Assembly: GCA_023266875.1 (NCBI GenBank)
Contig: JAHFOJ010000001.1
Location: 12,851-76,850 of the forward strand
Origin: Candidatus Giovannonibacteria bacterium
GTDB lineage: Bacteria > Patescibacteriota > Minisyncoccia > JACPKW01 > UBA11713
Direction: 5' to 3'
Length of the DNA: 64,000 nt
Each line of letters starts with the position of its first letter. Position 1 is the stretch's first letter. Below are positions 51,287 to 64,000 of the stretch, one piece after another. The translations under genes and the position numbers were made by a program. Below the pieces are notes generated by a model that was given only the letters and a program-made list of their open reading frames with translations, made no database searches and had not been told where the DNA came from.

Positions 51287-52350
51287 TTTAAATTAACATC
51301 TAAAGTTTTTATTACTTCTGCTATTCGGGGAATTACTGCTTGATATGAATAATGTCTTCTGATAGTTTCTAAGGAATTCCCGCTGATTTTCCCCCTAAGC
51401 TCAAGATTTTCAAGTAGAGCTTTTGTCTTCTTGACAGCTTCAGCGACTGAAGAAAATAGATATCCGTTTTCCCCATCTTTTGTGAGAAAAGCATTCTCTC
51501 CCACATTTGATTGTAGAGTCGGGATGCCGCAGGCCATATATTCCACAGACTTAAGTGCACACTTCGCTTTATTCCAAAGCGTGTCATCAAGCGGGTTGAA
51601 AGCAATATCTGGCTCGTATTTTTTTAGGGTTCTAGCAGTGGCTTGTGGATCATTTGCCCAATCGGCTGTATCGTCAAAAAAAACTTTATATGGGGTGCTT
51701 TGCAACAAATCCTTCATACCGCTTACTTCTGAAGAAATGAGCACTAAGCGAAATGGAATTTCTGTTTTCCTATATAGCTCATCTGTAATTTCTTTTAAAA
51801 ACTTAATATGGCCGTCTTTGAGATGAGCCGGGGCACCTTCCCACACCAGCGTATAAATATTTCGAGACGCAGGATGAATTATGAACGGCGAATAGAGTTC
51901 ATAATCTACTACGCTTGGGATTAATTCGAGCCGAGAATTAAGCCCGCGCGCCCAGTCCAAAATCGCGTGCGAACCGCAGAAAACAACATCGGCGCTCCGT
52001 GCAAGCATGCGGGTTTTAAATCCAGAATGAAGCCACTCGGCGTCATCAAGATCATAAATCATTTTTTTCCCATATTTTCTTTTAAGTAAAATCAAAAGAA
52101 TTACAAAATCAAACGGAAAAAGGCTTTTGTGAACGTATAGAATTTTCACTTCAGGATTTCTTATTTTCCAGATGATATCTCTTAAAATTCTGAAACGTTC
52201 TGTTGAAATCCTCCAGAGAGGATAGCGTGCTCCGGAGAAAACATCATAATCATATCCGAAAATATTTTTCAATCGTTCCGCAACATACCAAACGCGCAAA
52301 CGAGAACTCGCAACAGATCTGTCACCTTTCGTAAAAAACAGAATTTTCAT
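51283..52350 (-). CDS. GT-B fold glycosyltransferase (GT4-like)
   Basis: 355 aa. C-terminal ...EYMACGIPTLQSNVGENAFLTKDGENGYLF nucleotide-sugar binding region. Confidence 0.6.
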   Translation of the reverse strand: MKILFFTKGDRSVASSRLRVWYVAERLKNIFGYDYDVFSGARYPLWRISTERFRILRDIIWKIRNPEVKILYVHKSLFPFDFVILLILLKRKYGKKMIYDLDDAEWLHSGFKTRMLARSADVVFCGSHAILDWARGLNSRLELIPSVVDYELYSPFIIHPASRNIYTLVWEGAPAHLKDGHIKFLKEITDELYRKTEIPFRLVLISSEVSGMKDLLQSTPYKVFFDDTADWANDPQATARTLKKYEPDIAFNPLDDTLWNKAKCALKSVEYMACGIPTLQSNVGENAFLTKDGENGYLFSSVAEAVKKTKALLENLELRGKISGNSLETIRRHYSYQAVIPRIAEVIKTLDVNLK

Positions 52351-53690
52351 ATCAAATTTTTAAAGCGCGATATCACTTCTCCAAAATTCCCTGCTAAATC
52401 CCAAATTATTATAAGGAATAGAAAAAGGAAACTCATCGCCGCTATATACTTCAGCTTCTGTTTATTTTCCTTGTCATAATAAAACTTTGTAAGAACGTAG
52501 GCCACAGAGATCGCGAGGAATATAAAAAATGGCGCGCGATAGCGAGTCTCGACTATAACCGGGATGACCGCGAGCGGCTGAAGAATCGCGAACAAAATAA
52601 ATATCCGTTTTCTAAAAATATTTTTAGTCTCATCTCCCAAAAGAAAAACCCCCGCAATGCCAAAACCGAAAAGAATCGACGTCCACAGGAAGGAAGCTCC
52701 TAATGTAAATACTTTCTCAAATTTCCCAAGATGATCCCAAAAACCAGTCGGGCGGAGCATGCTGAAATAAATTCCAGCCTTTTCTAATTGTAAATCTATA
52801 AATTTAATGGGATGCGCTCTAATAAAACTAAAATATTCCGACCACCCTTTCTCATCAGAGGCAATAATTCCATTTGAGCGCCTAAAACTTGCGATTTCAT
52901 TGGTTTTATCAAATCCACCTGTCGCGCTAGCATTATTCCCTACCCACAAATCATACCCGCCAGTTGAAGAAGTTAAAATGACCCGGTGGTAAATATTCCA
53001 ATTGCGGACCGCCCAGGGGGCAACAATAATAATAGGAAATAAAAAAAGCAAAAAAGCATAAGATATCTTATTTCTGTAGAAAAATATTATTGCGCCAGCA
53101 ATTAGATAAAAAACTATCGTTGGACGCGCCATAAATGAAACGCCTAGCAGAAAACTTGAATATAAAACAGATTTAATATTTGGAGAATCAAGAGTTTTTA
53201 ATAAGATATAACTTGTCCAAGCAAGCAGAAAGAGAAAAAATGTTTCGGTGAGCAACATAGAATTCAAAATTATTAAATCAGGAGAAAACCCGAAAAGAAA
53301 CGCCGCCAGCAAACCGACTTGTTCTCGATAGCCATAGTCCTCAAACAGGAAAAGGCATAATTTATAAATTATGAAAGCTGTCAAGAAGCGCAAAAGCCCA
53401 TGGATAATCCATACAAGCCATATTTTGTGGCCAAAGATTTTATAGATTCCGGCGAGAAAAAATTCATACCCTGGGCCGATGCGGCCGATCCCGTCGTCTA
53501 AAGCAGGTGTATTAAAATAATAATCAGGGTGCTCAAGATACCCAATCCCCTGGGCTAGATTCCAGCCGATATTATCGTAGGCACGCGCATCAACTGCCGT
53601 CGGGATTCTATAATAGAAGGAGTAAGCCAAACTCGCGCAAAAAATCACGATAAGCACGATCCATAATTTATTTCTCGTTTGTAAGTTCAT
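52347..53690 (-). CDS. GT-C fold membrane glycosyltransferase (ArnT/PMT-like); third in the locus
   Basis: 447 aa. More than 10 TM helices. N-terminal loop VDARAYDNIGWNLAQGIGY typical of GT39/83. Confidence 0.6.
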   Translation of the reverse strand: MNLQTRNKLWIVLIVIFCASLAYSFYYRIPTAVDARAYDNIGWNLAQGIGYLEHPDYYFNTPALDDGIGRIGPGYEFFLAGIYKIFGHKIWLVWIIHGLLRFLTAFIIYKLCLFLFEDYGYREQVGLLAAFLFGFSPDLIILNSMLLTETFFLFLLAWTSYILLKTLDSPNIKSVLYSSFLLGVSFMARPTIVFYLIAGAIIFFYRNKISYAFLLFLFPIIIVAPWAVRNWNIYHRVILTSSTGGYDLWVGNNASATGGFDKTNEIASFRRSNGIIASDEKGWSEYFSFIRAHPIKFIDLQLEKAGIYFSMLRPTGFWDHLGKFEKVFTLGASFLWTSILFGFGIAGVFLLGDETKNIFRKRIFILFAILQPLAVIPVIVETRYRAPFFIFLAISVAYVLTKFYYDKENKQKLKYIAAMSFLFLFLIIIWDLAGNFGEVISRFKNLI

Positions 53691-54283
53691 ACTGTTATTT
53701 TCGCGAACAAATTCATTCCCAGCTCGAAATAGCCCATTTTGGCTTTAGATAAATCGAAGCCGGCACTCGCCAGATGATCCCGTAAAAGGCGCTTGGAATA
53801 ATAGCGCTTATGGTCGCGATACTGAGCTTCGTCAATTAAATGCAGACGATATGCTAAAAATTCTCCAATATATTTATTGGGCGGAGTTGGGACTGTAATC
53901 AGTAAAATACCCCCGGGTTTCAAAATCCGCTTCGCTTCTTTTAGAATTTCTACCGGGCGCAAAAGATGTTCGAGCACAGCAAGAAGCGTTACCGTATCTA
54001 CGCTTTTGTCCGTCATTGGAAGCTCATGTTCAACAAAAATATTTTTGAGCGTAATATTGCCCTCGCGGCTTTCAGAAATTTTCTTATCAAGTCCTATGCC
54101 TTCTTTTATATAACTCTTGAGATCGCGCAAAAGTTGCGCGTGCGGCCCGCAACCTATGTCGCATAAAATAGCTCCCGGCGGGAGATGTGGCCGAATCTTT
54201 CGTATACGTATCCAGCGGAGAAAAACGTCTAGAAAAGAATTCACAAGTAATTCATATAATAGCTTATTTCTAAAAAAGATCAA
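53687..54283 (-). CDS. Class I SAM-dependent methyltransferase
   Basis: 198 aa. Motif I ILCDIGCGPHAQL. Motif post-I/II present. Confidence 0.75.
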   Translation of the reverse strand: MIFFRNKLLYELLVNSFLDVFLRWIRIRKIRPHLPPGAILCDIGCGPHAQLLRDLKSYIKEGIGLDKKISESREGNITLKNIFVEHELPMTDKSVDTVTLLAVLEHLLRPVEILKEAKRILKPGGILLITVPTPPNKYIGEFLAYRLHLIDEAQYRDHKRYYSKRLLRDHLASAGFDLSKAKMGYFELGMNLFAKITV

Positions 54284-54313
54284 AGGCGTTCCCCTTTCGG
54301 TAAAACGCCTTTG

Positions 54314-54928
54314 TCATTTGATGTGCCGAATTATAGATTGCTTCCCAAGGAAAGTTTCATTCAGCCGCAGAAACCACATAAGCGCCAAAGGGAACCATCC
54401 ATAAATAAGCCTGTCCCAAAAAATCCTTGGCGAACGTTTCCATTTCCGTAAAATTTTCCCCATTGTTTTTTTTCTCCGCTTATATTGCTGAGTCGCACAC
54501 ACATTTTCGACCCACAGAATTTGCATTGACGATAGCGGGATTTTGGCATCAATGTTTCTTAGGATCATCTCTATGCGTCCGCGCTTGCAAAGCGGAGCTA
54601 AGATAATGGGATTTACGATTTCCAAATCGACTCCGATAAAATCTTTAAAGCTCTTAATTTCTCCGTCGGTTGTATCGGCCGAAGGATTAATAATAAGAGA
54701 ATCTCTTGGGATGCCCATACGTCTAAGCAGTTTTTGAAGCATTCTTAATTCTGGCTCGCGCATTCCTCTCCATTGCACATTAGACGAGATGTAAAAATGC
54801 GTCGCTTTTCTTAAATCATATAGCACTTTTGCGGCGTAAGCGGCTAAGCGCATTTCAAAAGACGGACGATTCGGGCTTTTCCAATAAGGAGCCCAGCTTA
54901 AAATTAGGCAAATTTTCAAGCAACTCAC
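54314..54928 (-). CDS. Hypothetical, possibly DUF218 (YdcF/ElyC-like)
   Basis: 204 aa. ...INPSADTTDGEIK... weakly matches the DUF218 S.nT.ENA motif. Confidence 0.3.
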   Translation of the reverse strand: MSCLKICLILSWAPYWKSPNRPSFEMRLAAYAAKVLYDLRKATHFYISSNVQWRGMREPELRMLQKLLRRMGIPRDSLIINPSADTTDGEIKSFKDFIGVDLEIVNPIILAPLCKRGRIEMILRNIDAKIPLSSMQILWVENVCATQQYKRRKKTMGKILRKWKRSPRIFWDRLIYGWFPLALMWFLRLNETFLGKQSIIRHIK

Positions 54929-54964
54929 CTCCTTTCTACATTGTAAAAATTAGCTTATTTTGAC

Positions 54965-55657
54965 CTACCTGTCAATTAAGTTAAACCAAAGAACCGCGAA
55001 AAGCGCGCGGACACCGTCCCAAGGGCGGATTTTTTTACCTTCTTCGTAGGTTCGGCCGGCATAGCTTATCGGCACTTCAAAAATTCTAAAATGAGCATGC
55101 GCCGCGCGAGCCGTCAGTTCCGCCTCTATCGCAAACCCCTTTGATTTTATACGGGGCAATATTTCTTTAAGCGAATCTGCTCGAAAAACTTTATAGCAAG
55201 TGTAGACATCAGATAAATTAAGATTCGTAAATATATTTGAAAAAAGCGTAACAATACCATTTCCGAGCGAATGCCAAAAATAGAGAACTCTTCGCTCTTC
55301 ACCGCGAAATCTTGAACCAAATACAACATCCGCCCTGCCTTCAAGTATAGGTTCAATAAGCCTCCCATATTCAGATGGATTATATTCCAAATCGGCATCC
55401 TGAATTAATATGATGTCCCCGGCCGCATTTTCAAAGCCCAGACGCAATGCTGCGCCTTTGCCTAAATTCTTCTCATTCCTAACGCATTTTATGCCAGGCA
55501 TCTTTGAAACAAATTCAAAAGTTCCGTCAGTTGAATAATCATCAACAACAATAATCTCTTTTTCGAGAGGCAATTCGACAGACCTGACTTTTTCAATAAC
55601 CGCGTTAATAGTCTTTCTTTCGTTGAAAGCTGGAATTATAATCGATAGTTTTTTCAT
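54965..55657 (-). CDS. GT2 glycosyltransferase, DPM1-like
   Basis: 230 aa. IIIPAFNE...IVVDDYSTDGT...QDADLEY... Confidence 0.8.
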   Translation of the reverse strand: MKKLSIIIPAFNERKTINAVIEKVRSVELPLEKEIIVVDDYSTDGTFEFVSKMPGIKCVRNEKNLGKGAALRLGFENAAGDIILIQDADLEYNPSEYGRLIEPILEGRADVVFGSRFRGEERRVLYFWHSLGNGIVTLFSNIFTNLNLSDVYTCYKVFRADSLKEILPRIKSKGFAIEAELTARAAHAHFRIFEVPISYAGRTYEEGKKIRPWDGVRALFAVLWFNLIDR

Positions 55658-56769
55658 GATTGTTTCGACTTTTCGAGCATAAAATCGTATATCACTTTTG
55701 CGCGACCCTCCCAGCTAAAATCTTTAGCTTTTGTTGCAGCTCGCCTTGCCTTTTCTAGCATAATTTGAGGATTTGCGAAAGCCCCATTTATTACATCTAA
55801 CAGGCTATGCGCATTATCTGCCTCAAAGAAAAATACTTCATTATCAGACACAAATTCGCGTATCGACGGCAAATTAGAGATAACAATTGGCTTAGCCATC
55901 AACAAATATTCCGGAATTTTTAAAGGCGAAGTGTAAAGACTGGTCCAATTCGATTTGCCTGAAAATGGGGCGAGAAGCATGTCCGCGGCCGACATATATT
56001 CTCCAGCCTTCTGGTGCGAAACTTGCTCGACCCAAATTATTTTCCTGAAGTTCTCATTGCTTTTAAAATTTGCGATTTCATTTCCACGCCCGCCGACTGA
56101 AATTATTTTAATTTCTGGGGGCAAGAGTTGAGCCAGCTTAAGCAATGTGAGAATTCCTTTTTCTTCTGACGGAGTCCCTATATAAATTATTAGTTTTTCA
56201 TCCATGGGAAGCGAGAGACGCTTGCGCGCTTCTTCTCGCGAGAGATTACTTTTGAAATTCAAGTCCACGCCGTTCAACGCGACTATAATTTTATCTTTTG
56301 GTACGCCAAATATTTTTGTCAAATCATCCGCTTTTTTTTTATTTGTGGTAATTATCCCGCGAGCAACTCCAAAAACACGCCTATATACAAAACTGGGCAG
56401 GCGCTCAAATGCATGGACTTCAAAAAAGAACATGTTTGAACGGATATTTAAAAAATATGAAAGCCAAAAAGCAAGCAATCCATCCCTCAGAAACCAAACT
56501 GTATCCGGGTTATGTTTTATAATGATGGACACTCGGCGCGCAAAAAATAAGCTTTTCGGCCAAAAATGAGGCTTGCCGAGCGCCAAAACATTAAATTCAT
56601 TCCTCACGTCATAATCACCAAAAATTTCCTTAATCGGCGCTCTCAATTCGCGGACATATAGTGTAAATTTCTCCGCCAATCGAGAAAAGGATTCGGACAT
56701 TTTCATGACCTGAAGCCGGTTTACGAATCTAGAAGGATATGCAAGTGGCGTTAGATATCTTAAATCCAT
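55654..56769 (-). CDS. GT4 glycosyltransferase. Start chosen at the internal Met (MDLRYL); the ORF-track N-terminal extension is rejected
   Basis: GT-B C-terminal domain ...IIYIGTPSEEKGI...PFSGKSNWTSLYTSPLKIPEYLLMAKPIV. Confidence 0.7.
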   Translation of the reverse strand: MDLRYLTPLAYPSRFVNRLQVMKMSESFSRLAEKFTLYVRELRAPIKEIFGDYDVRNEFNVLALGKPHFWPKSLFFARRVSIIIKHNPDTVWFLRDGLLAFWLSYFLNIRSNMFFFEVHAFERLPSFVYRRVFGVARGIITTNKKKADDLTKIFGVPKDKIIVALNGVDLNFKSNLSREEARKRLSLPMDEKLIIYIGTPSEEKGILTLLKLAQLLPPEIKIISVGGRGNEIANFKSNENFRKIIWVEQVSHQKAGEYMSAADMLLAPFSGKSNWTSLYTSPLKIPEYLLMAKPIVISNLPSIREFVSDNEVFFFEADNAHSLLDVINGAFANPQIMLEKARRAATKAKDFSWEGRAKVIYDFMLEKSKQS

Positions 56770-57092
56770 CAGAAAATAGTTGAAAAAAAATGATAATTTG
56801 ATAATATTGATACAATGAATCCCGTTAGAGATGATAAGTTTTATTATACCTATATATTGCGCAGCAAAAAAGATCAAAGATGGTTTACTGGTTTTACATA
56901 TGATTTACGGAAGCGCTTTATAAAACGTAATTTGAAAAGTTACGTCAACAATAAATAAAGGGCAGTTTAACTTAATATATTACGAAGCTTGTAAAATGAG
57001 GGCGACGCAAGGTCGAGGGAAAAATATTTAAAAACTGGCATGGATAAGTGTTATATTAAAAATAGATTAAAGCGCTTCCTATCTCTAACGGA

Positions 57093-58565
57093 ATGAATAA
57101 TAGCAAGATTCAGGATAAAATTCACCCATCCACCAAAGATTTTGGCGGGCGGGTTCATGCAATTGGCTGTGACGTGACCGAAAGACAGCTTCAAAACTCC
57201 CTTGAAAAAATTGCCGCGATCCCAAGCCTTTCATCAAAGATAGTTTGCCTGCCAGATCTCTATTTAAAAGCGCGCACAGAGGCTCCCGCGTCAATTGTCA
57301 CAGCAATAAATAACGCGATAGTGCCGACCCTTTCCGCGCCTTCACTCGGCTGTAGTATGGGCGTAATCGCGACGAATCTTACAGCAAAGGATTTAACCGA
57401 AAATACCGAGCGCGTTTTTTTTAATCACATGCAAGATGAGCTGGGTAAATATTATAACTTCTGGGACAACATCGCGGTTTGGCTTGGGCTCAAAACACGC
57501 CGGTTAAATAAGTACGACCTTTCTTTGGAAGAATTCGACGGCATCGTCAAGAGAGGGGCGAAAGCCGCAATCCAGCGTTATGGTTTTTCTGAAAAAATCC
57601 TCGAAAATATAGAATGGGGCGGATCAGTCTATTCGAATGAGGAAATTCGAAACTTGGATCTCAAAAAAATATTACCACGCTCTTCATTCACCAATGGACG
57701 TCACGATCTAGGCTACGGATTTAAAGGAAATCATTTCCTTGAGATTCATGTGATTGAAGATATTTTCGACTCAAAAACCGCTTCAGCTTGGGGGCTTTCA
57801 AAAGATCAAATTGTTATCTTCTACCACGGCGGCGGAGGCATGGTGCCATATCACATGGGGCGTTACTACGCCAATCGCATGAAAAATAATCTTAAGCAAA
57901 AATTCTTCTTAAGAATCGGAAAGTTGTTTTTTCATCTTTTTTCCATGGATGGAATAAAAAATTTCAGAGAGCGCGCGCGCTATTACTTTTTTCCCGAACT
58001 TTTTCAGGAAATTAAGGCTGATTCTATGGAAGGTATACGTTACGGGCTCGCGATTAAAGCTGCGCTCAACTACAGCTACGCTTTTAATATCGCATTAATG
58101 GCGCGGGTGCGAGATGCTCTGAAAAATACTTTCAAAGATAAGAATATTGAAATCAAACCGATATATGCTCTCGTCCATAATTCGATTATCAAAGAAAAAG
58201 TTGGGCCGCACGAGCTATTTGTACATCGCCACACATTAAATCGTGTCGAGGAAGGAAAGCCGACAATTCTTTCGGGCTTCAATAACACAATTTCTTATAT
58301 CGGTATTGGGCTAAAGCCGCCTCCAGAGACGCTCTGGTCGGCTGAACATGGCGCGGGAGAAAATATAAAACGTTTCGAGCGTGAAGGAAAATCTAGAGAA
58401 GACAGCGGCCGCGAAACTATTATTTTCAAGACAAAACCGCCCCCTGCGACGCACGTTAAACATAGAACGGCCGAGGGAGTTGATTTCGTTATGACGAAAC
58501 TTGAAGAAGCCGGATTAATGCGAAAAGTATTATCATTAAGACCGCTGGCTAGTTTTAAAGGATAA
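57093..58565 (+). CDS. Divergent RtcB-family (RNA 3'-phosphate ligase-like) protein
   Basis: 490 aa. Colinear with RtcB. PDLYLK...GCSMGVIATNLTAKDLTEN matches E. coli RtcB PDVHLGKG...GCGMNALRTALTAEDLPEN. GNHFLEIHVIEDIFD matches GNHYAEIQVVEQIFD. HGAGE matches HGAGR. Two conserved positions are substituted (Tyr for His in PDVH, Glu for Arg in HGAGR). Confidence 0.7.
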   Translation: MNNSKIQDKIHPSTKDFGGRVHAIGCDVTERQLQNSLEKIAAIPSLSSKIVCLPDLYLKARTEAPASIVTAINNAIVPTLSAPSLGCSMGVIATNLTAKDLTENTERVFFNHMQDELGKYYNFWDNIAVWLGLKTRRLNKYDLSLEEFDGIVKRGAKAAIQRYGFSEKILENIEWGGSVYSNEEIRNLDLKKILPRSSFTNGRHDLGYGFKGNHFLEIHVIEDIFDSKTASAWGLSKDQIVIFYHGGGGMVPYHMGRYYANRMKNNLKQKFFLRIGKLFFHLFSMDGIKNFRERARYYFFPELFQEIKADSMEGIRYGLAIKAALNYSYAFNIALMARVRDALKNTFKDKNIEIKPIYALVHNSIIKEKVGPHELFVHRHTLNRVEEGKPTILSGFNNTISYIGIGLKPPPETLWSAEHGAGENIKRFEREGKSREDSGRETIIFKTKPPPATHVKHRTAEGVDFVMTKLEEAGLMRKVLSLRPLASFKG

Positions 58566-58568
58566 AAT

Positions 58569-59408
58569 ATGGATTCAACCAAAGAACTTCGCCAAAAACT
58601 ACAAGCATTTAAATACGAAGGACGCGAACGCCCGTGGGGTTATCGCGCGCTTCAGCGAGGACCATCGATTTATATTACACGTTTCGCAATCAAGCACGAT
58701 CTCACCCCGAATCAGATTACACTTGCGGGAATTATCTGCGGAATAATCGGCAGTTTTCTTGTATTTTTCGCCTTGCCATTTAAAATAGCGGGCGCGATTT
58801 TGCTATATGCCAATATTCTCTCCGATAAAGTTGATGGTGAAACTGCCCGCTTCCGCATCCAAGAAAAAAGAGGAAAAGTTTATCTGCGAGGAGTATACTT
58901 AGACGAACTTAATCATCTCATAATTCCTCCCCTCTTTTTGCTCGGAGTAACGCTTGGAATTATTTCAAATTTCCCCTATAACACGTCCATCCTTGCCTTC
59001 ACAGGCCTATTTGCTACGCTCTCCCTCCCTTTCCTTCGAGTTTATCATTCGCTCGCTCCGCAGATTTTCATGAAAAAATATATAAAACATCCTGAATTAT
59101 TCTCTCCATTGCCTCATGCGAACGAGCCTGATCCAATATTCCAGATCAAAAAGAAATATTCTCCTCTAAAGAAATTTATTCAAGCAATTCATCAATTGCA
59201 AGATTTTTTTATAATAGTTTTCTTATTATTTCTCTCATTTTTGGGTGAGATAACAATGCCGATGTTCCGTCCGCATTTGCTTTCAGGCCTGCTTGTAGTA
59301 ATCCTTGGGATTATCCTGCCGCTTATCGTCATCGAAAATTCAATTAAAGGATTCTTTCAAATCGAACACCGCGTGCGGGACATTAAAGATAAATACTGGC
59401 AGAAATAG
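58569..59408 (+). CDS. CDP-alcohol phosphatidyltransferase-family-like integral membrane protein
   Basis: 279 aa, about 6 TM helices. Motif SDKVDGETARF...G...YLDELNH approximates the D-G-x2-A-R...G-x3-D-x3-D signature, with the last Asp replaced. The gene starts 4 nt after the RtcB-like stop. Confidence 0.5.
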   Translation: MDSTKELRQKLQAFKYEGRERPWGYRALQRGPSIYITRFAIKHDLTPNQITLAGIICGIIGSFLVFFALPFKIAGAILLYANILSDKVDGETARFRIQEKRGKVYLRGVYLDELNHLIIPPLFLLGVTLGIISNFPYNTSILAFTGLFATLSLPFLRVYHSLAPQIFMKKYIKHPELFSPLPHANEPDPIFQIKKKYSPLKKFIQAIHQLQDFFIIVFLLFLSFLGEITMPMFRPHLLSGLLVVILGIILPLIVIENSIKGFFQIEHRVRDIKDKYWQK

Positions 59409-59412
59409 AAAG

Positions 59413-60492
59413 TTAATTTTCTGTGTTGAAAAGTGAAATAAACTCGCGAACCTCTCTCTCTTTCCCGAATTTCTCGGCGAATTCAAGGCCAGCTTTGCGA
59501 AATTTATCGTAAAGTTCTTCGTCCGCCAAAAGTTTTCTTATTTTCTTGCCGAATTCGGCGACATCTCCGGGCTTTATTAAAAACTCTTCGAAGCCGGCTG
59601 GTGCAATATCTCTAACTCCGCCAACATCGGACGCGACAAACGGCGTTCCAGCGGCCATCGCCTCCAGAAGAGAATGCGGCACGCCTTCCTCGCGAGATGG
59701 CATTAAAAAGGCATCTGCCGCTTGATAATAAGCGACCATATCGCGATTCGGAACAGGCCCGATAACTTTGACAGGTATATGCGAACCAAGCGCTTCTGCC
59801 TCAAGTGATTCGCGGTACGGACCATCGCCGACAACAAACAAAACAGCATCAGAATCTCGAATGTAAGATATGATCGGCACCAAAAGATCCGCGCCTTTTC
59901 TCTCTGATAGGTGGTGAACAAAAAGAATCAGTTTTGTAGATCCTTTAATTCCAAACCAGCTTTTTGTGGCCTCTTTGCTTTCCTTTGGCAAAAAACGTCC
60001 GGCATCCACCCAATTTGAAACAATCTTCCATTTACGAACACGAAAATGCTTTACATATTCTTCAGCAAGACTCTTAGACCCTGTAACTAAAGTTGTGTGG
60101 CGCAAAATAAATCTAAAACACCGCTCCTCAAAAAAACCGCGGCGAAAAAGCCAAGGCATGCCGCAATTCCAATAAGAAACTCTCAAGCGGGCAAGCCAGC
60201 CTGCGAGCGCTCCATAATATGAGTAGTGAACATAAATATTATTGTATCCTTCTTTTTTCAGCCGCCTCAAAATAAAATAAAGTTCAAAAAAACGCGCAAT
60301 TCCTTTTTTGTGTTTCTGGACCAGAAATGGAACGTTAAGATTAATCGGACTTACAGCGTTTTCTATCACCGCATAAATATCAATCGCGGAACTTGCGGCG
60401 CGGATCAGCTCATAATTATAAAACAAATGAGTATCAGTTTTGTCGTCATACTTAGGCAAAATATAAATTACCTTTTCAGACATGCCTTCCAT
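59413..60492 (-). CDS. GT4 glycosyltransferase
   Basis: 359 aa. ...PSREEGVPHSLLEAMAAGTPFVASDVGGVRDI (E-x7-E). Confidence 0.85.
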   Translation of the reverse strand: MEGMSEKVIYILPKYDDKTDTHLFYNYELIRAASSAIDIYAVIENAVSPINLNVPFLVQKHKKGIARFFELYFILRRLKKEGYNNIYVHYSYYGALAGWLARLRVSYWNCGMPWLFRRGFFEERCFRFILRHTTLVTGSKSLAEEYVKHFRVRKWKIVSNWVDAGRFLPKESKEATKSWFGIKGSTKLILFVHHLSERKGADLLVPIISYIRDSDAVLFVVGDGPYRESLEAEALGSHIPVKVIGPVPNRDMVAYYQAADAFLMPSREEGVPHSLLEAMAAGTPFVASDVGGVRDIAPAGFEEFLIKPGDVAEFGKKIRKLLADEELYDKFRKAGLEFAEKFGKEREVREFISLFNTEN

Positions 60493-61631
60493 GATTCAAC
60501 TAATTTATTCCTATAATCATCAAATGAAACATAAGGCCGGGGAGTATTTTTTGCTCCTTCGGAAAGTTTTTTCAAGAAAGTTTTGTCATTTTTAATTTTA
60601 GTTAATGATCCAACAAGCGCTGATCGATCCCCAACCGGAAAAATAATCCCGTTTTGCCCGTCTTTAACAACTTCATGGGCGAGCCCAACGTCCGTCATTA
60701 AGACAGGAAGCCTCGATCCAAGCGCTTCAAGCGCAGCAAGGCTATATCCTTCGTAATTCGATGTTATTAATAGGCAATCCGCGCTCTGATAGTAATCAGC
60801 AAGATCTTCGGCTGATTTCCATCCTTCAAAATAAACATTCCCCTCAAGCCCATATTTTGCTTCATCTTCAAGGCGCGTCCGAAGCAACCCATCGCCTACA
60901 ATTACCAGCAAAATTTCCGGTCCCTTATTTACAATTTCACGAAACGCGTCAAGCGCGAGCGATATATTTTTTTCATGAGTTAGGCGAGAAGCCATTAAAA
61001 CATATAACTCATATCCCGGGTATTTCTTTTTAATATCCAACCATCCTTTCGGCTTACTTGCATCCGAATAAATCGGCAAGACACGGATAGTTGGCAGTTT
61101 ATAGTTTATAGTTTTTAGAATGGAGTTTTTGATCCGTTCGGATACAACCCGAATTCCATCAGCTCGCGGAATCAGGAAACTAGCTAACCAAATCCTGATT
61201 TTGTTAAAAAAAGATCCTCTAAAATAGTAAGGGCTAAAAATATCCGCATGAATTTGCATCTGCCACGGAACGCTAAATTTCTTTGAAAGTTTCCAAGCTA
61301 AAAACGAATGCTCGATTTCCTGCGCGGTAATCAAATCAAATTTCTCGCGCAATAAAACTGCCCTAGCTTTTTTATATCCCTTCCAAAATCGAAATAATTT
61401 CCCATCTTTCGCATCAATTTTTATAATTTCAAGTTTGTCCAAAACCTTTGCATATTCCCGCATCCGCAAAAAAACCGCGCTCCCCGCCTCATCCACCCAT
61501 GGATCCGATGAAAACATTAGAACTTTCATCCCGTTAGAAATCCGACCCGCTGTAGGCGCGTTGGTAGAAATCTCCGGTTTCTTATTTCTAACGGGATTCA
61601 TACAATTTCTTTTAAATAACATTGTTCGCAA
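60468..61631 (-). CDS. GT4 glycosyltransferase
   Basis: 387 aa. ...SNYEGYSLAALEALGSRLPVLMTDVG... Confidence 0.8.
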   Translation of the reverse strand: MRTMLFKRNCMNPVRNKKPEISTNAPTAGRISNGMKVLMFSSDPWVDEAGSAVFLRMREYAKVLDKLEIIKIDAKDGKLFRFWKGYKKARAVLLREKFDLITAQEIEHSFLAWKLSKKFSVPWQMQIHADIFSPYYFRGSFFNKIRIWLASFLIPRADGIRVVSERIKNSILKTINYKLPTIRVLPIYSDASKPKGWLDIKKKYPGYELYVLMASRLTHEKNISLALDAFREIVNKGPEILLVIVGDGLLRTRLEDEAKYGLEGNVYFEGWKSAEDLADYYQSADCLLITSNYEGYSLAALEALGSRLPVLMTDVGLAHEVVKDGQNGIIFPVGDRSALVGSLTKIKNDKTFLKKLSEGAKNTPRPYVSFDDYRNKLVESWKACLKR

Positions 61632-63334
61632 TAAACAATCCGTGGATCATCCGGCCGATAAACAGCTTCAAATTTAACTCCGCATTTAGGGCAAACTCTC
61701 TCAAAAAATTCCAAAACTATTGAGCCAAATTTATCCCTTTTTTCTTTGAGGCGTGCGCTAAAATGTTCAAGCGGCAAAGGCGTATTAAATTTACGATGCA
61801 AATCCAGCTCTGCTTGGGTATATCGAAATTTTTTATTATTTATTTTATCAAAAATTATTCTATCTAAAATATCGTTTTTTACGTTTTTAATATCAGCTGG
61901 CACATTCTCCGCATTAATTATATCTCCCTTCACTTCATCAAGCTCTTCTTTAATTTCTTCAAATCTATATCCAAACCGCCGCGCATTCTCAAAATCATCA
62001 TAACCTTTATACGATGAGGCAATCGAAAGATTATACGGAAAAGGTGAGGAATCTGGAGGAAAAAACTCTCCATATTCTCCATCCTTAAACATCTTAGTTT
62101 TTATTTCATCAACCTTCCGCCAATAATCGCCCTCTGTATACTGCTTGTTAAAAATACAAAATGATTTATTACTAAGCGCAATACAGCCAAAAACATCATG
62201 GCAATTTTTGCAAAAATCAGAGTATTCCGCATCACGACAGCCTGCCATCATAGTAGAAAACAATGTTTTGTAGCAATTATAAGCGCCCGCACATTCATAG
62301 GAGAATTCAGTTTCTACTGCACTTACATCGTACGAATCACGAATCTTCGTCGAACCAATGGAATATGCCGTTCGTTCTGAATCCATAACAAAATAACAAT
62401 TGAAACAATCTCTCGAGTTTATGATATAGTCTCCGGAACTATTCACCAATTTCTCATTATGGTGAGGCTTGTGAATCGCGTTCCGGGATATTTCGTAAAA
62501 TTTCTTTTTGTATTCAGCTAGAACATTACGATCCCCTAAATTAATTTCCGACAACTTGCTCTGATATTCGTCTTTCGTTAACTGCTCTCCAAAGAAAACA
62601 TACTTCTTATGGCGCAAATTTATGCCCCCGAAACAATTCGTGCAATTCCGGCAATCATATAGAAAATAACTGTCCAGACAGTTTTTTGAAAATTCCACAA
62701 AATAACAATTATAAAGTTCACTGGACTCAAAACATTCATAACAAATAGTGGAGTCAAATGCATCGAAACAATCAACACAATCTTTAGAATTTAAACAAAT
62801 CGTATAGTGGCAATTTTCGCTCTTGATCGAGTTAAAAACTAGATAGCAATCTTTCAAATGTGTTGAATCGTTAGTAAATTCACTATTTATGCTTGTATTG
62901 TCAACATAAAGATTGGGACGCGGCACAACTAGTTGAAGATTCTTAAACTGGTCAAAAAAGCTTCTAGATAAGTCACAATCGCGTTCATATTCTATGGCAT
63001 CCCATTCACCTCCAAACCAATGTTGGTGATCATAAATTTTATAAGGCGTATTTGGCGGATACTGCATTAAAATTTTTTTGCCCGAAAAAGACGAGATGCC
63101 GTAAAAAAGATTAAAAGAATTCCAAACAGCAAGAAATGAACGCATTCGTTCTTTCGGACTCAAAGTCGGAAGAGGCACGCGTATTTTTTTATAAAACGCG
63201 ACATCTTCAGGTCTAACATAAAATTTCTCGCTAGAAAACCGGCACGTTCTCCACTGTCCTCCCTTCTCGTCGAACTCAAGTTTCGAGAAATATTCATCCA
63301 ACGCCTTATCAAATTGTGGTGTTTTTGATGTCAT
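61598..63334 (-). CDS. Large cysteine-rich protein of unknown function (578 aa). Has an approximately 11-residue Cys repeat core and a C-terminal Zn-ribbon-like CPKCG...YCEQCYLKEIV
   Basis: Long ORF with 35 Cys. Repeats such as NCHYTICLNSKDCVDCFDAFDSTICYECFESSELYNCYFVEFSKNCLDSYFLYDCRNCTNCFGG. No signal peptide. No family recognised. Confidence 0.6.
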   Translation of the reverse strand: MTSKTPQFDKALDEYFSKLEFDEKGGQWRTCRFSSEKFYVRPEDVAFYKKIRVPLPTLSPKERMRSFLAVWNSFNLFYGISSFSGKKILMQYPPNTPYKIYDHQHWFGGEWDAIEYERDCDLSRSFFDQFKNLQLVVPRPNLYVDNTSINSEFTNDSTHLKDCYLVFNSIKSENCHYTICLNSKDCVDCFDAFDSTICYECFESSELYNCYFVEFSKNCLDSYFLYDCRNCTNCFGGINLRHKKYVFFGEQLTKDEYQSKLSEINLGDRNVLAEYKKKFYEISRNAIHKPHHNEKLVNSSGDYIINSRDCFNCYFVMDSERTAYSIGSTKIRDSYDVSAVETEFSYECAGAYNCYKTLFSTMMAGCRDAEYSDFCKNCHDVFGCIALSNKSFCIFNKQYTEGDYWRKVDEIKTKMFKDGEYGEFFPPDSSPFPYNLSIASSYKGYDDFENARRFGYRFEEIKEELDEVKGDIINAENVPADIKNVKNDILDRIIFDKINNKKFRYTQAELDLHRKFNTPLPLEHFSARLKEKRDKFGSIVLEFFERVCPKCGVKFEAVYRPDDPRIVYCEQCYLKEIV

Positions 63335-63434: not shown

Positions 63435-64000
63435 TTAAACTATTTCCTTTAAATAACAACTCTCACAATAGACCTTTAATTTTTTGGCGGGATCGTAAGA
63501 AGAATACATTTCTTGCCCGCAATTTGAGCATGGGTATTTCCATAAATAATACGGGTTCTTTTTTTTAAATCGTTCAAAAAGACGCACCTGGTAGTGATTT
63601 GTTGGCAACGGAATTTTATATTTTCTATAAAAAGTTAATTCCCATTCCGTAATCTGAAACAATCTTCCGGTCTCGGTACAGATAATCGCTTTTTTCAAGA
63701 TATCATTTTGGACATCGGCGATATTGTCGGGCAGTTCTTCGCCTTTTATTTTTTCGAGGTCAGAATGCATTATAGGCTCAATCGCGCGCCATCTAGCTTT
63801 AAATGTTTTTGCAGATGTTTCATTAAGGGGAACAATCATTTGCGCATAAGTATCATTGTAATAAAAGAATGAGTGCTCGAGGGGCAGAAACTCTCCATAC
63901 ATACCATCCGCAAGCATTTTAGTTTTCATTTCATCGATTTTTTTCCAATATTCGTTTTCAGTATAAGCTTTATTGAAAATGTAATACTCTTTATTTTTTA
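63435..64000 (-). CDS. Paralog of the Cys-rich protein; runs off the window end, so N-terminus is missing
   Basis: The ORF-track 164-aa call starts at an internal Met. The same frame stays open to 64000 and reads ...NKAYTENEYWKKIDEMKTKMLADGMYGEF, parallel to the paralog's NKQYTEGDYWRKVDEIKTKMFKDGEYGEF. Both end in CYLKEIV. Confidence 0.6.
   Translation of the reverse strand, partial: KNKEYYIFNKAYTENEYWKKIDEMKTKMLADGMYGEFLPLEHSFFYYNDTYAQMIVPLNETSAKTFKARWRAIEPIMHSDLEKIKGEELPDNIADVQNDILKKAIICTETGRLFQITEWELTFYRKYKIPLPTNHYQVRLFERFKKKNPYYLWKYPCSNCGQEMYSSYDPAKKLKVYCESCYLKEIV

What the first reader, a model, noticed from the sequence alone, without database searches (positions are those of the whole stretch)
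57093..59408. Divergent RtcB-like ligase translationally coupled to a CDP-alcohol-phosphotransferase-like membrane protein, inside a glycosylation locus
The 490-aa protein is colinear with RtcB RNA ligases and has long near-identical blocks. It substitutes two normally invariant positions: Tyr for His in the PDVH Mn-binding motif, and Glu for Arg directly after the GMP-accepting His (HGAGE instead of HGAGR). It also has a 50-aa N-terminal extension. Its stop is 4 nt from the start of a 6-TM protein. That protein carries a degenerate CDP-alcohol phosphatidyltransferase motif (DGETAR...G...D). The surrounding genes are all glycosyltransferases. RtcB chemistry is nucleotidyl activation of a phosphate followed by attack by a hydroxyl. 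Paired with a membrane phospho-alcohol transferase, it might ligate a phosphorylated substituent onto a lipid or glycan. That would be an undescribed use of the fold.
Basis: partly seen in the sequence, partly recalled or inferred. Interest (0 to 1): 0.65.

Follow-up and report, generated by a model that had tools for sequence, protein, structure and literature searches.

The report
RtcB-like enzyme paired with membrane phosphotransferase
A protein built like the RNA-joining enzyme RtcB, but lacking the residues that hold RNA, is coupled across many bacterial phyla to a membrane phospho-alcohol transferase inside sugar-polymer gene clusters. This suggests the RtcB fold has been recruited to build cell-surface glycans, a use not yet described.

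Summary
Both genes are real. The 490-aa protein (57093-58565, +) has the RtcB family signature and fold. It keeps the GMP-accepting His419, the guanine contacts and five of the six metal ligands. It lacks the Mn2 ligand Asp (Ser84) and the arginines tied to the RNA strands (Gly249, Glu423). The 279-aa partner starts 3 nt after its stop. It is a six-helix CDP-alcohol phosphotransferase relative with seven of the eight signature residues. The fourth Asp, the proposed catalytic base, is His in 218 of 239 relatives.

The pairing is conserved:
- 32 of 39 informative loci of the linked RtcB-like clades carry this membrane gene just downstream. These come from Patescibacteria, Eisenbacteria, Rokubacteria, Nitrospirae, Pirellulales and others.
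- 0 of 21 loci with other RtcB types carry it (p = 1.5e-10).
- Four of four partners traced back have an RtcB gene immediately upstream.
- Every annotated neighbourhood is a polysaccharide locus, and none has a cytidylyltransferase.

Best reading (inferred, untested): the RtcB-like enzyme self-guanylylates, activates a phosphomonoester to a GDP-linked donor, and the membrane enzyme transfers the phospho-group to a glycan or lipid hydroxyl.

Several details do not: the "Mn-binding" PDVH His, the 50-aa extension and the long identical blocks. I found no paper describing this pairing.

The parts
57093..58565 (+). RtcB-like protein, 490 aa, soluble, 'clade A' of a glycan-locus branch of the RtcB family
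   Evidence: Pfam RtcB scores 156 bits but falls below all NCBIfam RtcB cutoffs. The AF2 model has pLDDT 93.5 and Foldseek hits only RtcB structures, TM about 0.68 and about 20% identity. No TM segment. About 85 homolog clusters at 40-70% identity, those that carry a name being from Patescibacteria.
57252..57263 (+). P54-D55-L56-Y57: PDxH motif with Tyr in place of His
   Evidence: Most clade-A proteins keep the His. All six two-gene (no paralog B) loci examined have a non-His here: Y, Y, V, A, A, N.
57342..57353 (+). S84-L-G-C87: Mn2 ligand Asp (Pho D95 / Eco D75) replaced by Ser; bridging Cys retained
   Evidence: Alignment to E. coli RtcB. Metal-ligand roles from PMC8051266 and PMC9745838.
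57729..57743 (+). N213-H214-F-L-E217: GNHFLE motif (Asn contacting the GTP phosphates and 5'-OH, Mn2 His, guanine-binding Glu), intact
   Evidence: Invariant in all clades. Roles.
57825..57839 (+). H245-G-G-G-G249: Mn1 His retained; the Arg that clamps the 5'-OH strand phosphates (Pho R238 / Eco R189) replaced by Gly
   Evidence: Role of R238/R189 from PMC8051266.
58176..58181 (+). H362-N363: Mn1 His and gamma-phosphate Asn, retained
58347..58361 (+). H419-G-A-G-E423: GMP-accepting His retained; following Arg (Pho R408 / Eco R341) replaced by Glu
   Evidence: This position is E/V/I/G/T/A in nearly all of clade A.
58557..58571 (+). Gene junction: K489 codon (guanine O6 contact) within an AAAGGA SD-like sequence, stop TAA 58563-65, 3-nt spacer, ATG 58569
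   Evidence: The geometry is consistent with translational coupling. Homologous pairs have gaps of 1-60 nt.
58569..59408 (+). CDP-alcohol phosphotransferase-like integral membrane protein, 279 aa, juxtamembrane helix plus about 6 TM
   Evidence: Pfam PF01066 scores 24.4 bits against a cutoff of 22. The family profile hits AF2299 (4o6m) at E 2.4e-18, and also IPCT-DIPPS and PIP synthases. The AF2 model has pLDDT 95 and Foldseek's best hit is AF2299, TM 0.53.
58707..58721 (+). P47-N48-Q-I-T51: P(D/N)xx(T/S) nucleotide-base motif of CDP-alcohol phosphotransferases, retained
   Evidence: Role from PMC4634129.
58824..58916 (+). D86xxD89G90E91xA93R94-x13-G108xxxD112xxxH116: family signature with the fourth Asp (proposed catalytic base) replaced by His, and a 5-residue insert in the spacer
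   Evidence: D86, D89, G90, E91, A93, R94, G108, D112 and H116 are invariant across phyla. 218 of 239 family sequences carry the His; the spacer is x8 in 207 and x13 in 13. D4 role from PMC4634129.
57028..57057 (+). Promoter-like site (TTAAAA-18-TATATT with TG) 36 nt upstream of the RtcB-like start
   Evidence: This is a consensus match only and is weak evidence.
52347..56877 (-). Divergent glycan operon: GT4 (55654-56877), GT2 (54965-55657), unassigned ORF (54314-54928), methyltransferase (53687-54283), PMT_2/GT-C (52347-53690)
   Evidence: The same GT2-methyltransferase-PMT_2 block sits divergently upstream of the pair in relatives at 67% and 49% identity.
59413..61631 (-). Convergent GT4 glycosyltransferase genes (59413-60492, 60468-61631)
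   Evidence: Equivalent GT4 genes flank the pair in other Patescibacteria.

Best explanation
The two genes form a conserved two-enzyme module of cell-surface glycan (or glycolipid) biosynthesis. They are not an RNA repair system.

Proposed mechanism, all steps inferred:
1. The soluble RtcB-like protein binds GTP and a divalent metal and forms a covalent His419-GMP adduct, as RtcB does.
2. It transfers GMP to the phosphate of a small non-nucleic-acid phosphomonoester, such as a polyol or sugar phosphate. This gives a GDP-linked alcohol, chemically the same step as RNA(3')pp(5')G formation.
3. The coupled membrane enzyme is a CDP-alcohol-phosphotransferase relative with His as its general base. 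It uses this NDP-alcohol as donor and transfers the phospho-alcohol to a hydroxyl of a lipid-linked glycan or lipid at the cytoplasmic face, releasing the nucleotide monophosphate.

In this reading the RtcB-like protein takes the place that the cytidylyltransferase domain holds in IPCT/DIPPS. The logic mirrors CobU (His-GMP intermediate, AdoCbi-GDP product) followed by the membrane enzyme CobS.

Shown here: family and fold membership, the pattern of kept and lost residues, the conserved gene pairing, and the glycan-locus context. Not shown: any of the chemical steps.
For: RESIDUE PATTERN IN THE RtcB-LIKE PROTEIN
- Kept for GTP binding and self-guanylylation: Cys87, His245 and His362 (Mn1); His214 (Mn2); Asn213; Asn363; guanine contacts Glu217 and Lys489; nucleophile His419.
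- Lost for holding nucleic acid. Arg238/R189 is Gly249 in the CDP-linked clades (A, B and b; Glu in clade c). Pho R190 and Q194 are replaced by Asn201 and Asp205. The Arg after HGAG is replaced by Glu423.

CONSERVED PAIRING
- The CDP-like gene lies downstream on the same strand in 32 of 39 informative loci of the linked clades and in 0 of 21 other RtcB loci (Fisher p = 1.5e-10).
- In the non-Patescibacterial clade the gap is 6-59 nt in 20 of 26 loci.
- Reverse check: four of four CDP-like homologs have an RtcB gene immediately upstream.
- In a neighbour-joining tree the linked RtcB-likes form one clade.

GLYCAN CONTEXT IN EVERY ANNOTATED NEIGHBOURHOOD
- GT4, GT2, PMT_2, Wzx, Wzy_C, Bac_transf, DegT, epimerase and methyltransferase genes surround the pair.
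- No cytidylyltransferase was seen that could supply a CDP-alcohol.

MEMBRANE PARTNER
- Its closest solved relatives are AF2299 and IPCT-DIPPS. IPCT-DIPPS is fused to a cytoplasmic nucleotidyltransferase that makes its donor, and these enzymes prefer soluble donors (PMC4634129).

PRECEDENT
- CobU guanylylates AdoCbi-P through a His46-GMP intermediate, and the polytopic membrane enzyme CobS uses AdoCbi-GDP (PMC8092220).

OTHER
- PADLOC finds no defence-system match.
Against: - No biochemical data exist for any member. The substrate and the nucleotide used by the membrane enzyme are unknown.
- The membrane partner keeps the P(D/N)xx(T/S) motif, which in characterised enzymes hydrogen-bonds the cytosine amine. 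It may therefore still use a CDP-linked donor.
- The Mn2 ligand Asp is missing (Ser84), and Mn2 contacts the GTP beta and gamma phosphates. Self-guanylylation could be impaired or metal-dependent in a different way.
- Asn213 is retained. It positions the attacking hydroxyl in RtcB, so the protein could carry out the final joining step itself.
- Pairing is not universal. One clade-A gene has no partner within 3 kb. One genome splits paralog A from B plus partner. Six clade-b loci lack an adjacent partner.
- Most Patescibacteria carry a second, nucleophile-less paralog that this model does not explain.
- My annotation covered only part of each neighbourhood, so the absence of a cytidylyltransferase is not exhaustive.
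Confidence: 0.45

Rival explanations
1. Reversed order of action. The membrane enzyme uses an ordinary CDP-linked donor (for example CDP-diacylglycerol or CDP-glycerol made elsewhere) and a phosphorylated acceptor. Its product ends in a phosphomonoester, as PIP, AIP and DIPP synthases produce. The RtcB-like enzyme then carries out full RtcB chemistry on that product: guanylylate the terminal phosphate, then let a glycan or lipid hydroxyl attack. This ligates the two through a phosphodiester.
For: - The best NCBIfam matches of the partner are inositol-phosphate-using synthases: archaetidylinositol-phosphate synthase, PIP synthase and IPCT/DIPPS.
- The cytosine-binding P(D/N)xx(T/S) motif is kept.
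- Asn213, which positions the attacking hydroxyl in RtcB, is invariant.
- A sister clade of RtcB-likes in glycan loci is coupled to an HprK-related P-loop kinase-like protein instead. That fits a 'make a phosphomonoester, then join it' scheme.
Against: - No Arg is invariant in TM4-6, where PIP synthases bind the acceptor phosphate.
- No CDP-alcohol-forming enzyme appears in any annotated neighbourhood.
- All those NCBIfam scores are far below the family cutoffs.
Confidence: 0.2
2. The RtcB-like protein is mainly a non-catalytic or regulatory subunit. It would act as a GTP- or metal-binding scaffold or sensor that docks on the membrane transferase and controls it, or it would cap a phosphorylated glycan or protein with GMP as an end product rather than as an intermediate.
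For: - Most Patescibacterial loci carry a second paralog with the nucleophile His replaced by Pro, placed directly before the membrane gene. A catalytically dead RtcB fold is therefore used in this system.
- The Mn2 Asp ligand is lost throughout the family.
Against: - Paralog A, including the window protein, and the Cys-to-Asp clade keep the nucleophile His, the guanine contacts and five of the six metal positions under strong conservation across phyla. This is not expected for a pure scaffold.
- The window and five other loci have only the His-bearing paralog.
Confidence: 0.12
3. It is an ordinary, if divergent, RNA ligase used for tRNA or rRNA repair, and it merely happens to lie next to a lipid-synthesis gene.
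For: - Pfam and the sources that hold these proteins name them RtcB or tRNA-splicing ligase.
- The core guanylylation residues are present.
Against: - Adjacency is conserved across at least seven phyla and is absent from canonical RtcB loci.
- The context is always polysaccharide genes, never RtcA, Archease, PrfH or other RNA-repair genes.
- The residues that bind the 5'-OH strand are replaced.
- Scores are far below every NCBIfam RtcB cutoff.
Confidence: 0.03

Closest known systems
RtcB 3'-phosphate/5'-OH RNA ligase (P. horikoshii PH1602, E. coli RtcB, human RTCB)
   Same: - Same fold: Foldseek matches only RtcB structures, TM about 0.68, and Pfam PF01139 scores 156 bits.
- The nucleophile His sits in an HGAG motif.
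- The Mn1 ligands Cys/His/His, the Mn2 His, the GNHFLE motif, and the guanine contacts Glu and C-terminal Lys are all conserved.
   Different: - Only about 20-24% identity.
- The Mn2 Asp is Ser. The Arg that holds the 5'-OH strand is Gly. The Arg after HGAG is Glu.
- The clade has derived residues of its own (K59, E63, P65, S67, F210, R262, K264, K277, H281, H380) and an insert of about 40 aa.
- Never found next to RNA-repair genes; always in glycan loci and coupled to a membrane transferase.
IPCT/DIPPS and AF2299 (CDP-alcohol phosphotransferases preceded by a cytoplasmic nucleotidyltransferase-type domain; IPCT-DIPPS is bifunctional)
   Same: - The membrane partner's best solved relatives: E 2.4e-18 to AF2299 and 2.2e-9 to IPCT-DIPPS.
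- Same 6-TM architecture and the same DxxDGxxAR...GxxxD core.
- In both cases a cytoplasmic nucleotide-handling module sits directly N-terminal to, or upstream of, the transferase.
   Different: - Here the upstream module is an RtcB fold with guanine contacts and a covalent-His mechanism, not a cytidylyltransferase.
- It is a separate polypeptide.
- The fourth signature Asp is His family-wide.
- The context is glycan biosynthesis, not osmolyte or phospholipid synthesis.
CobU / CobS step of cobamide nucleotide-loop assembly
   Same: - Same proposed logic. A soluble enzyme forms a His-GMP adduct and guanylylates a phosphomonoester to a GDP-linked intermediate. A polytopic membrane enzyme then condenses that intermediate with a second substrate (PMC8092220).
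   Different: - The folds are unrelated.
- The resemblance is mechanistic analogy only, and for the present system it is inferred, not shown.
Phosphatidylinositol-phosphate synthases (PgsA1, RsPIPS)
   Same: - Same family signature, the same P(D/N)xx(T/S) motif and the same fold.
   Different: - Those enzymes have Asp at D4, and D93N abolishes activity.
- No invariant acceptor-phosphate arginines are seen here.
- NCBIfam scores are far below their cutoffs.

Membership tests
RtcB family (Pfam PF01139) | Significant match to the family HMM over its full length | tested here: met
   156.4 bits against a cutoff of 27; model positions 2-426 of 426.
RtcB family (Pfam PF01139) | RtcB fold | tested here: met
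   AF2 model with pLDDT 93.5. The 16 significant Foldseek PDB hits are all RtcB/RTCB, TM 0.66-0.69.
RtcB RNA ligase (functional enzyme) | Nucleophilic His that accepts GMP (Pho H404 / Eco H337) | tested here: met
   His419 sits in an HGAG motif. It is lost in the paralog-B proteins of related loci.
RtcB RNA ligase (functional enzyme) | Mn1 ligands Cys98, His234, His329 | tested here: met
   Cys87, His245 and His362 are invariant. Roles.
RtcB RNA ligase (functional enzyme) | Mn2 ligands Asp95, Cys98, His203 | tested here: not met
   The Asp is replaced by Ser84 (98% Ser in clade A, Ala in clades B and b). Cys87 and His214 are present.
RtcB RNA ligase (functional enzyme) | Guanine-specific contacts Glu206 and Lys480 | tested here: met
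   Glu217 and Lys489 are invariant. Roles.
RtcB RNA ligase (functional enzyme) | Residues that bind the 5'-OH nucleic acid strand (Arg238/Eco R189, Arg190, Gln194) | tested here: not met
   They are replaced by Gly249, Asn201 and Asp205. Roles from PMC8051266.
RtcB RNA ligase (functional enzyme) | Conserved Arg after HGAG (Pho R408 / Eco R341) | tested here: not met
   Glu423 in the window protein; E/V/I/G/T/A in nearly all of clade A. Its role in RNA 3'-phosphate handling is my recollection of Maughan and Shuman 2016; that paper was not held.
RtcB RNA ligase (functional enzyme) | Score above an NCBIfam RtcB equivalog cutoff | tested here: not met
   76.7 against 407; 49.1 against 271.8; 70 against 1150.
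RtcB RNA ligase (functional enzyme) | GTP- and Mn-dependent joining of RNA 3'-phosphate and 5'-OH ends | not testable with these tools
   This needs an enzyme assay.
CDP-alcohol phosphotransferase (Pfam PF01066) | Match to the family HMM or to solved members | tested here: met
   Pfam scores 24.4 bits against a cutoff of 22, covering only the N-terminal third of the model. The family profile against the PDB gives AF2299 at E 2.4e-18, and IPCT-DIPPS and PIPS at about 1e-9.
CDP-alcohol phosphotransferase (Pfam PF01066) | Eight-residue signature D1xxD2G1xxAR...G2xxxD3xxxD4 | tested here: not met
   Seven of the eight residues are present. D4 is His116, and it is His in 218 of 239 family sequences. 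The papers call these eight residues absolutely conserved and D4 the likely catalytic base.
CDP-alcohol phosphotransferase (Pfam PF01066) | P(D/N)xx(T/S) motif at the start of TM1 | tested here: met
   P47-N48-Q-I-T51. Role.
CDP-alcohol phosphotransferase (Pfam PF01066) | Six-TM fold with a juxtamembrane helix | tested here: met
   AF2 model with pLDDT 95 and long helices at 25-42, 47-64, 69-98, 106-134, 139-171, 198-229 and 237-278. Foldseek's top 19 hits are all CDP-alcohol phosphotransferases, TM about 0.5. Hydropathy is consistent.
CDP-alcohol phosphotransferase (Pfam PF01066) | Transfer of a phospho-alcohol from a CDP-alcohol with release of CMP | not testable with these tools
   This needs a reconstituted enzyme assay. 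The nucleotide used is an open question.
Known anti-phage defence systems (PADLOC) | Match to any defence-system protein model | tested here: not met
   No hits for either window protein, for a paralog B or for a clade-b RtcB-like.

The most novel reading that the evidence does not exclude
A widespread branch of the RtcB superfamily does not act on nucleic acids at all. It is a GTP-dependent activator of phosphomonoesters, working through an enzyme-His-GMP adduct to give a GDP-linked alcohol. It feeds a dedicated subfamily of CDP-alcohol-phosphotransferase-like membrane enzymes, marked by His in place of the catalytic Asp. Together they install phosphodiester-linked groups on bacterial surface glycans or lipids. 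This would be the first non-RNA/DNA function for the RtcB fold and a new route to nucleotide-activated alcohols.
Probability: 0.4. Interest if true: 0.85.

Novelty: new variant of a known kind. Interest (0 to 1): 0.72.

Why it matters
- RtcB is known only as a nucleic-acid end-joining enzyme, in tRNA splicing, the unfolded-protein response and rRNA/tRNA repair. A large, phylogenetically broad branch that has shed its RNA-binding residues, sits in polysaccharide loci and is coupled to a membrane phosphotransferase would extend the fold's chemistry to glycan or lipid assembly.
- It would reveal a new way to make activated phospho-alcohol donors.
- It would assign a role to genes now auto-annotated as 'tRNA-splicing ligase' and 'phosphatidylglycerophosphate synthase' in Patescibacteria and many uncultivated phyla.
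- It gives a concrete handle on the poorly known cell-envelope chemistry of Patescibacteria.
- The hypothesis can be tested directly with two recombinant proteins.

Tried and rejected
- Single-linkage clustering of all neighbouring ORFs was swamped by spurious long and antisense ORFs in high-GC loci. I replaced it with GC3-filtered gene maps and Pfam scans of selected genes.
- I looked for RtcB-like/CDP-like fusion proteins among the long family members. None exists; the one long protein, P0302, is a CDP-like domain fused to a beta-helix domain.
- The PADLOC defence models gave nothing.
- Rfam and tRNA scans of the window gave nothing, so there is no riboswitch or RNA gene near the pair.
- No second RtcB or CDP-like gene lies in the 64-kb window.
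- Literature searches for RtcB with CDP-alcohol, with polysaccharide biosynthesis, and for 'RtcB-like' found no description of this pairing.
- The papers that would document the roles of Eco R341/R345 and the PDxH His were not held (Maughan and Shuman 2016; Desai 2013; Englert 2012). Those roles remain recollection only.
- I considered and rejected the housekeeping-RNA-ligase reading and a defence-system reading.
- I did not use the metagenome scan or the third homolog search, because the genome loci and contig look-ups already answered the pairing question.


Full report
**1. What is in the window**

Two same-strand ORFs occupy 57093-58565 (490 aa) and 58569-59408 (279 aa). The stop TAA at 58563-65 is followed by three bases and then the ATG. 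An AAAGGA Shine-Dalgarno-like sequence lies inside the last codons of the first gene. This geometry is consistent with translational coupling.

The pair is transcribed divergently from a GT4, GT2, methyltransferase and PMT_2 operon. It converges on two GT4 genes. The window from about 27 kb to 61.6 kb is one long glycan region. It holds Wzx, carbamoyltransferase, DegT aminotransferase, hexapeptide acetyltransferase, oxidoreductase, polysaccharide deacetylase, GT2 and GT4 genes, two PMT_2 genes and a CotH/beta-helix protein.

The window holds no second RtcB or CDP-like gene. It has no tRNA or Rfam match. Relatives that carry names are all Patescibacteria (Parcubacteria, Ryanbacteria, Campbellbacteria).

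**2. The RtcB-like protein**

It is a family member by HMM: Pfam RtcB scores 156 bits over the full model. It is also one by fold. The AF2 model has pLDDT 93.5, and the only significant PDB matches are RtcB/RTCB at TM about 0.68. It falls far below every NCBIfam RtcB cutoff and shares only about 20-24% identity with canonical enzymes.

I aligned it to E. coli RtcB, taken from MG1655, and read residue roles from the structural papers (PMC8051266, PMC9745838).

| Role in canonical RtcB | Pho / Eco residue | Window residue | State |
|---|---|---|---|
| Mn1 ligands | C98, H234, H329 | Cys87, His245, His362 | kept |
| Mn2 ligand | H203 | His214 | kept |
| GTP phosphate / 5'-OH contact | N202 / N167 | Asn213 | kept |
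| gamma-phosphate contact | N330 | Asn363 | kept |
| guanine contacts | E206, K480 | Glu217, Lys489 | kept |
| GMP-accepting nucleophile | H404 / H337 | His419 | kept |
| Mn2 ligand | D95 / D75 | Ser84 | lost |
| clamps the first two phosphates of the 5'-OH strand | R238 / R189 | Gly249 | lost |
| 5'-OH strand contacts | R190, Q194 | Asn201, Asp205 | lost |
| Arg after HGAG | R408 / R341 | Glu423 | lost |

Tyr57 replaces the His of the PDxH motif. That His is not one of the listed metal ligands, and most relatives keep it. There is no N-terminal extension. The PD motif is at residues 54-55, against 47-48 in E. coli, and query residue 76 aligns with P. horikoshii residue 87.

**3. The membrane partner**

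The Pfam match is borderline: 24.4 bits against a cutoff of 22, covering the N-terminal third of the model. A profile of 18 family members removes the doubt. It hits AF2299 at E 2.4e-18, and IPCT-DIPPS and PIP synthases at about 1e-9. The AF2 model (pLDDT 95) matches the same structures.

The signature reads D86xxD89G90E91xA93R94-x13-G108xxxD112xxxH116. That is seven of the eight 'absolutely conserved' residues. The fourth Asp, the proposed catalytic base whose D-to-N change abolishes PIP synthase activity (PMC4634129), is His.

This is a family trait and not decay:
- D86, D89, G90, E91, A93, R94, G108, D112 and H116 are invariant across phyla.
- 218 of 239 family sequences carry the His.
- The spacer is x8 in 207 sequences. 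It is x13 in 13 sequences, which include the window protein.

The P(D/N)xx(T/S) nucleotide motif is retained (P47-N48-x-x-T51). An exhaustive profile search finds 148 cluster representatives at E <= 1e-30 and 2767 at E <= 1e-10.

**4. The pairing is conserved, and the system is larger than the window shows**

Seventy-nine loci from GTDB species representatives sort by active-site signature.

| Clade | Taxa | Signature | CDP-like gene downstream, same strand |
|---|---|---|---|
| A (the window type) | Patescibacteria | D-[H/Y/..]-S-C...G...H-[E/V/I..] | 9 of 12 informative loci, within 6 kb, usually via paralog B |
| B | Patescibacteria | PD changed to PN; nucleophile His changed to Pro | 11 of 12; 8 within 200 bp |
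| b | Eisenbacteria, Rokubacteria, Methylomirabilota, Nitrospirae, Pirellulales, Limnocylindrales, Acidimicrobiia | bridging Cys is Asp; Mn2 Asp is Ala; nucleophile His kept | 20 of 26, all 6-59 nt downstream; 4 more have one elsewhere in the flank |
| c | Acidobacteriota, Polarisedimenticolia | R189 is Glu; R341 and R345 kept | 0 of 9 |
| canonical | various | DHDCNHEHRHNHRRK | 0 of 4 |

- Counted by locus, adjacency is 32 of 39 against 0 of 21 (Fisher p = 1.5e-10).
- In the reverse direction, four CDP-like homologs chosen without reference to RtcB, including the most divergent one, all have an RtcB gene 1-85 nt upstream.
- Many contig lengths recur in the two homolog lists, so the two proteins often sit on the same contigs.
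- In a crude neighbour-joining tree, A and B are sisters, consistent with a duplication in Patescibacteria. Together with clade b and three odd CDP-linked sequences they form one clade that excludes clade c and canonical RtcB.
- The whole glycan-locus superclade shares derived residues absent from canonical RtcB: K59, E63, P65, S67, F210, R262, K264, K277, H281 and H380.

The window's two-gene form (paralog A plus partner, no B) recurs in relatives at 67%, 49%, 51% and 49% identity. They show the same divergent GT2, methyltransferase and PMT_2 block. All six two-gene loci examined have a non-His residue in PDxH.

**5. Context**

Every neighbourhood I annotated is a polysaccharide locus:
- GT4 and PMT_2/TPR genes in Patescibacteria.
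- Bac_transf, Wzy_C, GT4, methyltransferase and Wzx directly upstream in a Nitrospirae locus.
- UDP-GlcNAc 2-epimerase, GT4 and Wzy_C in Pirellulales.

None contained a cytidylyltransferase or any RNA-repair gene. PADLOC found no defence-system match.

**6. Mechanism**

The kept and lost residues suggest a protein that still binds GTP and forms His-GMP but no longer holds polynucleotide. RtcB's second step transfers GMP to a terminal phosphomonoester to make X-pp-G. The product is chemically an NDP-alcohol, the donor class used by CDP-alcohol phosphotransferases.

Three observations fit this:
- The partner's nearest solved relatives (AF2299, IPCT-DIPPS) carry a cytoplasmic domain N-terminal to the transferase. 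In IPCT-DIPPS this is the cytidylyltransferase that makes the donor. Both take soluble donors. The RtcB-like gene occupies the equivalent upstream position.
- No other activating enzyme is encoded nearby.
- There is a precedent for this logic. CobU guanylylates AdoCbi-P through a His46-GMP intermediate, and the polytopic membrane enzyme CobS condenses AdoCbi-GDP with its second substrate (PMC8092220).

I therefore favour 'RtcB-like enzyme makes a GDP-linked phospho-alcohol donor; His-type transferase installs it on a glycan or lipid hydroxyl' (confidence about 0.45).

The main rival reverses the order. The transferase would make a phosphate-terminated product from a conventional CDP donor, and the RtcB-like enzyme would then ligate that phosphate to a hydroxyl (about 0.2). 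In its favour are the retained cytosine-type motif, the retained Asn213, and the kinase-coupled sister clade. A scaffold or regulatory role (about 0.12) is suggested by the nucleophile-less paralog B. It does not fit the strict conservation of the catalytic set in paralog A. The housekeeping RNA ligase reading is very unlikely (about 0.03).

The broader claim is that this is a glycan- or lipid-pathway module and not RNA repair. I hold that at about 0.85.

**7. Novelty**

Both families are well known. I found no report of their pairing, of a glycan-locus RtcB branch, or of the His-type transferase subfamily in the searchable literature. Database names are generic: 'RtcB family protein', 'tRNA-splicing ligase', 'CDP-alcohol phosphatidyltransferase family protein' and 'phosphatidylglycerophosphate synthase'.

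I class it as a new variant of a known kind, because known folds and a known activation-then-transfer logic appear in a new combination. All functional statements are inference from sequence, structure prediction and gene context.

Noticed in passing
window 56845-57090 (+): A decayed GIY-YIG-nuclease-like reading frame (YTYILRSKKDQRWFTGFTYDLRKRF...REKYLKTG...) with three in-frame stops lies in the divergent intergenic region upstream of the RtcB-like gene. It overlaps the over-extended TTG start of the minus-strand GT4 ORF 55654-56877, whose real start is probably further in.
   Followed up: partly
L004:13695-15095, L007:11416-12813, L009:11965-13374 and 9 more loci: Most Patescibacterial loci carry a second RtcB-like paralog directly upstream of the membrane gene. 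Its GMP-accepting His is replaced by Pro (HGAG becomes PS..) and PD becomes PN, yet the metal ligands and guanine contacts are kept. This is a likely pseudoenzyme or partner subunit. The window has none.
   Followed up: partly
L020, L025, L031, L036, L040, L047, L051, L052 and about 20 more loci: In Eisenbacteria, Rokubacteria, Nitrospirae, Pirellulales and others, the CDP-linked RtcB-like clade has the metal-bridging Cys replaced by Asp and the Mn2 Asp replaced by Ala. The Cys is reported essential for all steps of RtcB. This suggests a different metal site.
   Followed up: partly
L035:6997-8118, L018:2521-3636, L024:8854-9909, L067:9039-9962: A sister clade of RtcB-likes (R189 to Glu; Acidobacteriota and Chloroflexota) also sits in glycan loci with an ABC transporter, GT4, GT2 and Wzx. 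Instead of the membrane transferase it is overlapped upstream by a soluble 350-370-aa protein with a P-loop. That protein has weak matches to HprK-related kinases A and B.
   Followed up: partly
P0302; L038:11353-18597, L049:11369-16813, L053, L046, L060; L040:12257-16528: In the non-Patescibacterial clade the CDP-like membrane domain is often fused to, or followed with a 4-nt overlap by, a very large extracytoplasmic protein. That protein has right-handed beta-helix, PKD and purple-acid-phosphatase-like domains.
   Followed up: partly
L008:10224-10658; L004:11415-13640; L087:3432-4558; L084:2755-4528: The gap between RtcB-like paralog A and paralog B or the membrane gene often holds small unrelated genes: a PD-(D/E)XK nuclease, DUF5674, a PaaX-like gene and several small minus-strand ORFs. 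It looks like an insertion hot spot for small selfish genes.
   Followed up: no
window 58848-58892: The window's transferase has a 5-residue insert (x13 instead of x8) between the AR and G of the signature. Only 13 of 223 motif-bearing family members share this.
   Followed up: partly
window 61598-63334 (-) and 63435-63929 (-): Two neighbouring genes encode Cys-rich proteins (578 and 164 aa) with similar C-terminal treble-clef zinc-finger ends (...CExCYLKEIV). They have only a weak Pfam zf_Tbcl_2 match and no known function.
   Followed up: no
window 28507-30939 (+): An 810-aa protein combines a CotH kinase domain with a right-handed beta-helix, at the edge of the glycan region.
   Followed up: no
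L055:8989-9954: In an Omnitrophota locus a further divergent RtcB (DHGCNHEHGHMHRDK) is overlapped upstream by an LPG_synthase_TM-family membrane protein and a GT4. This may be another RtcB-plus-membrane-protein pairing in a glycan context.
   Followed up: no
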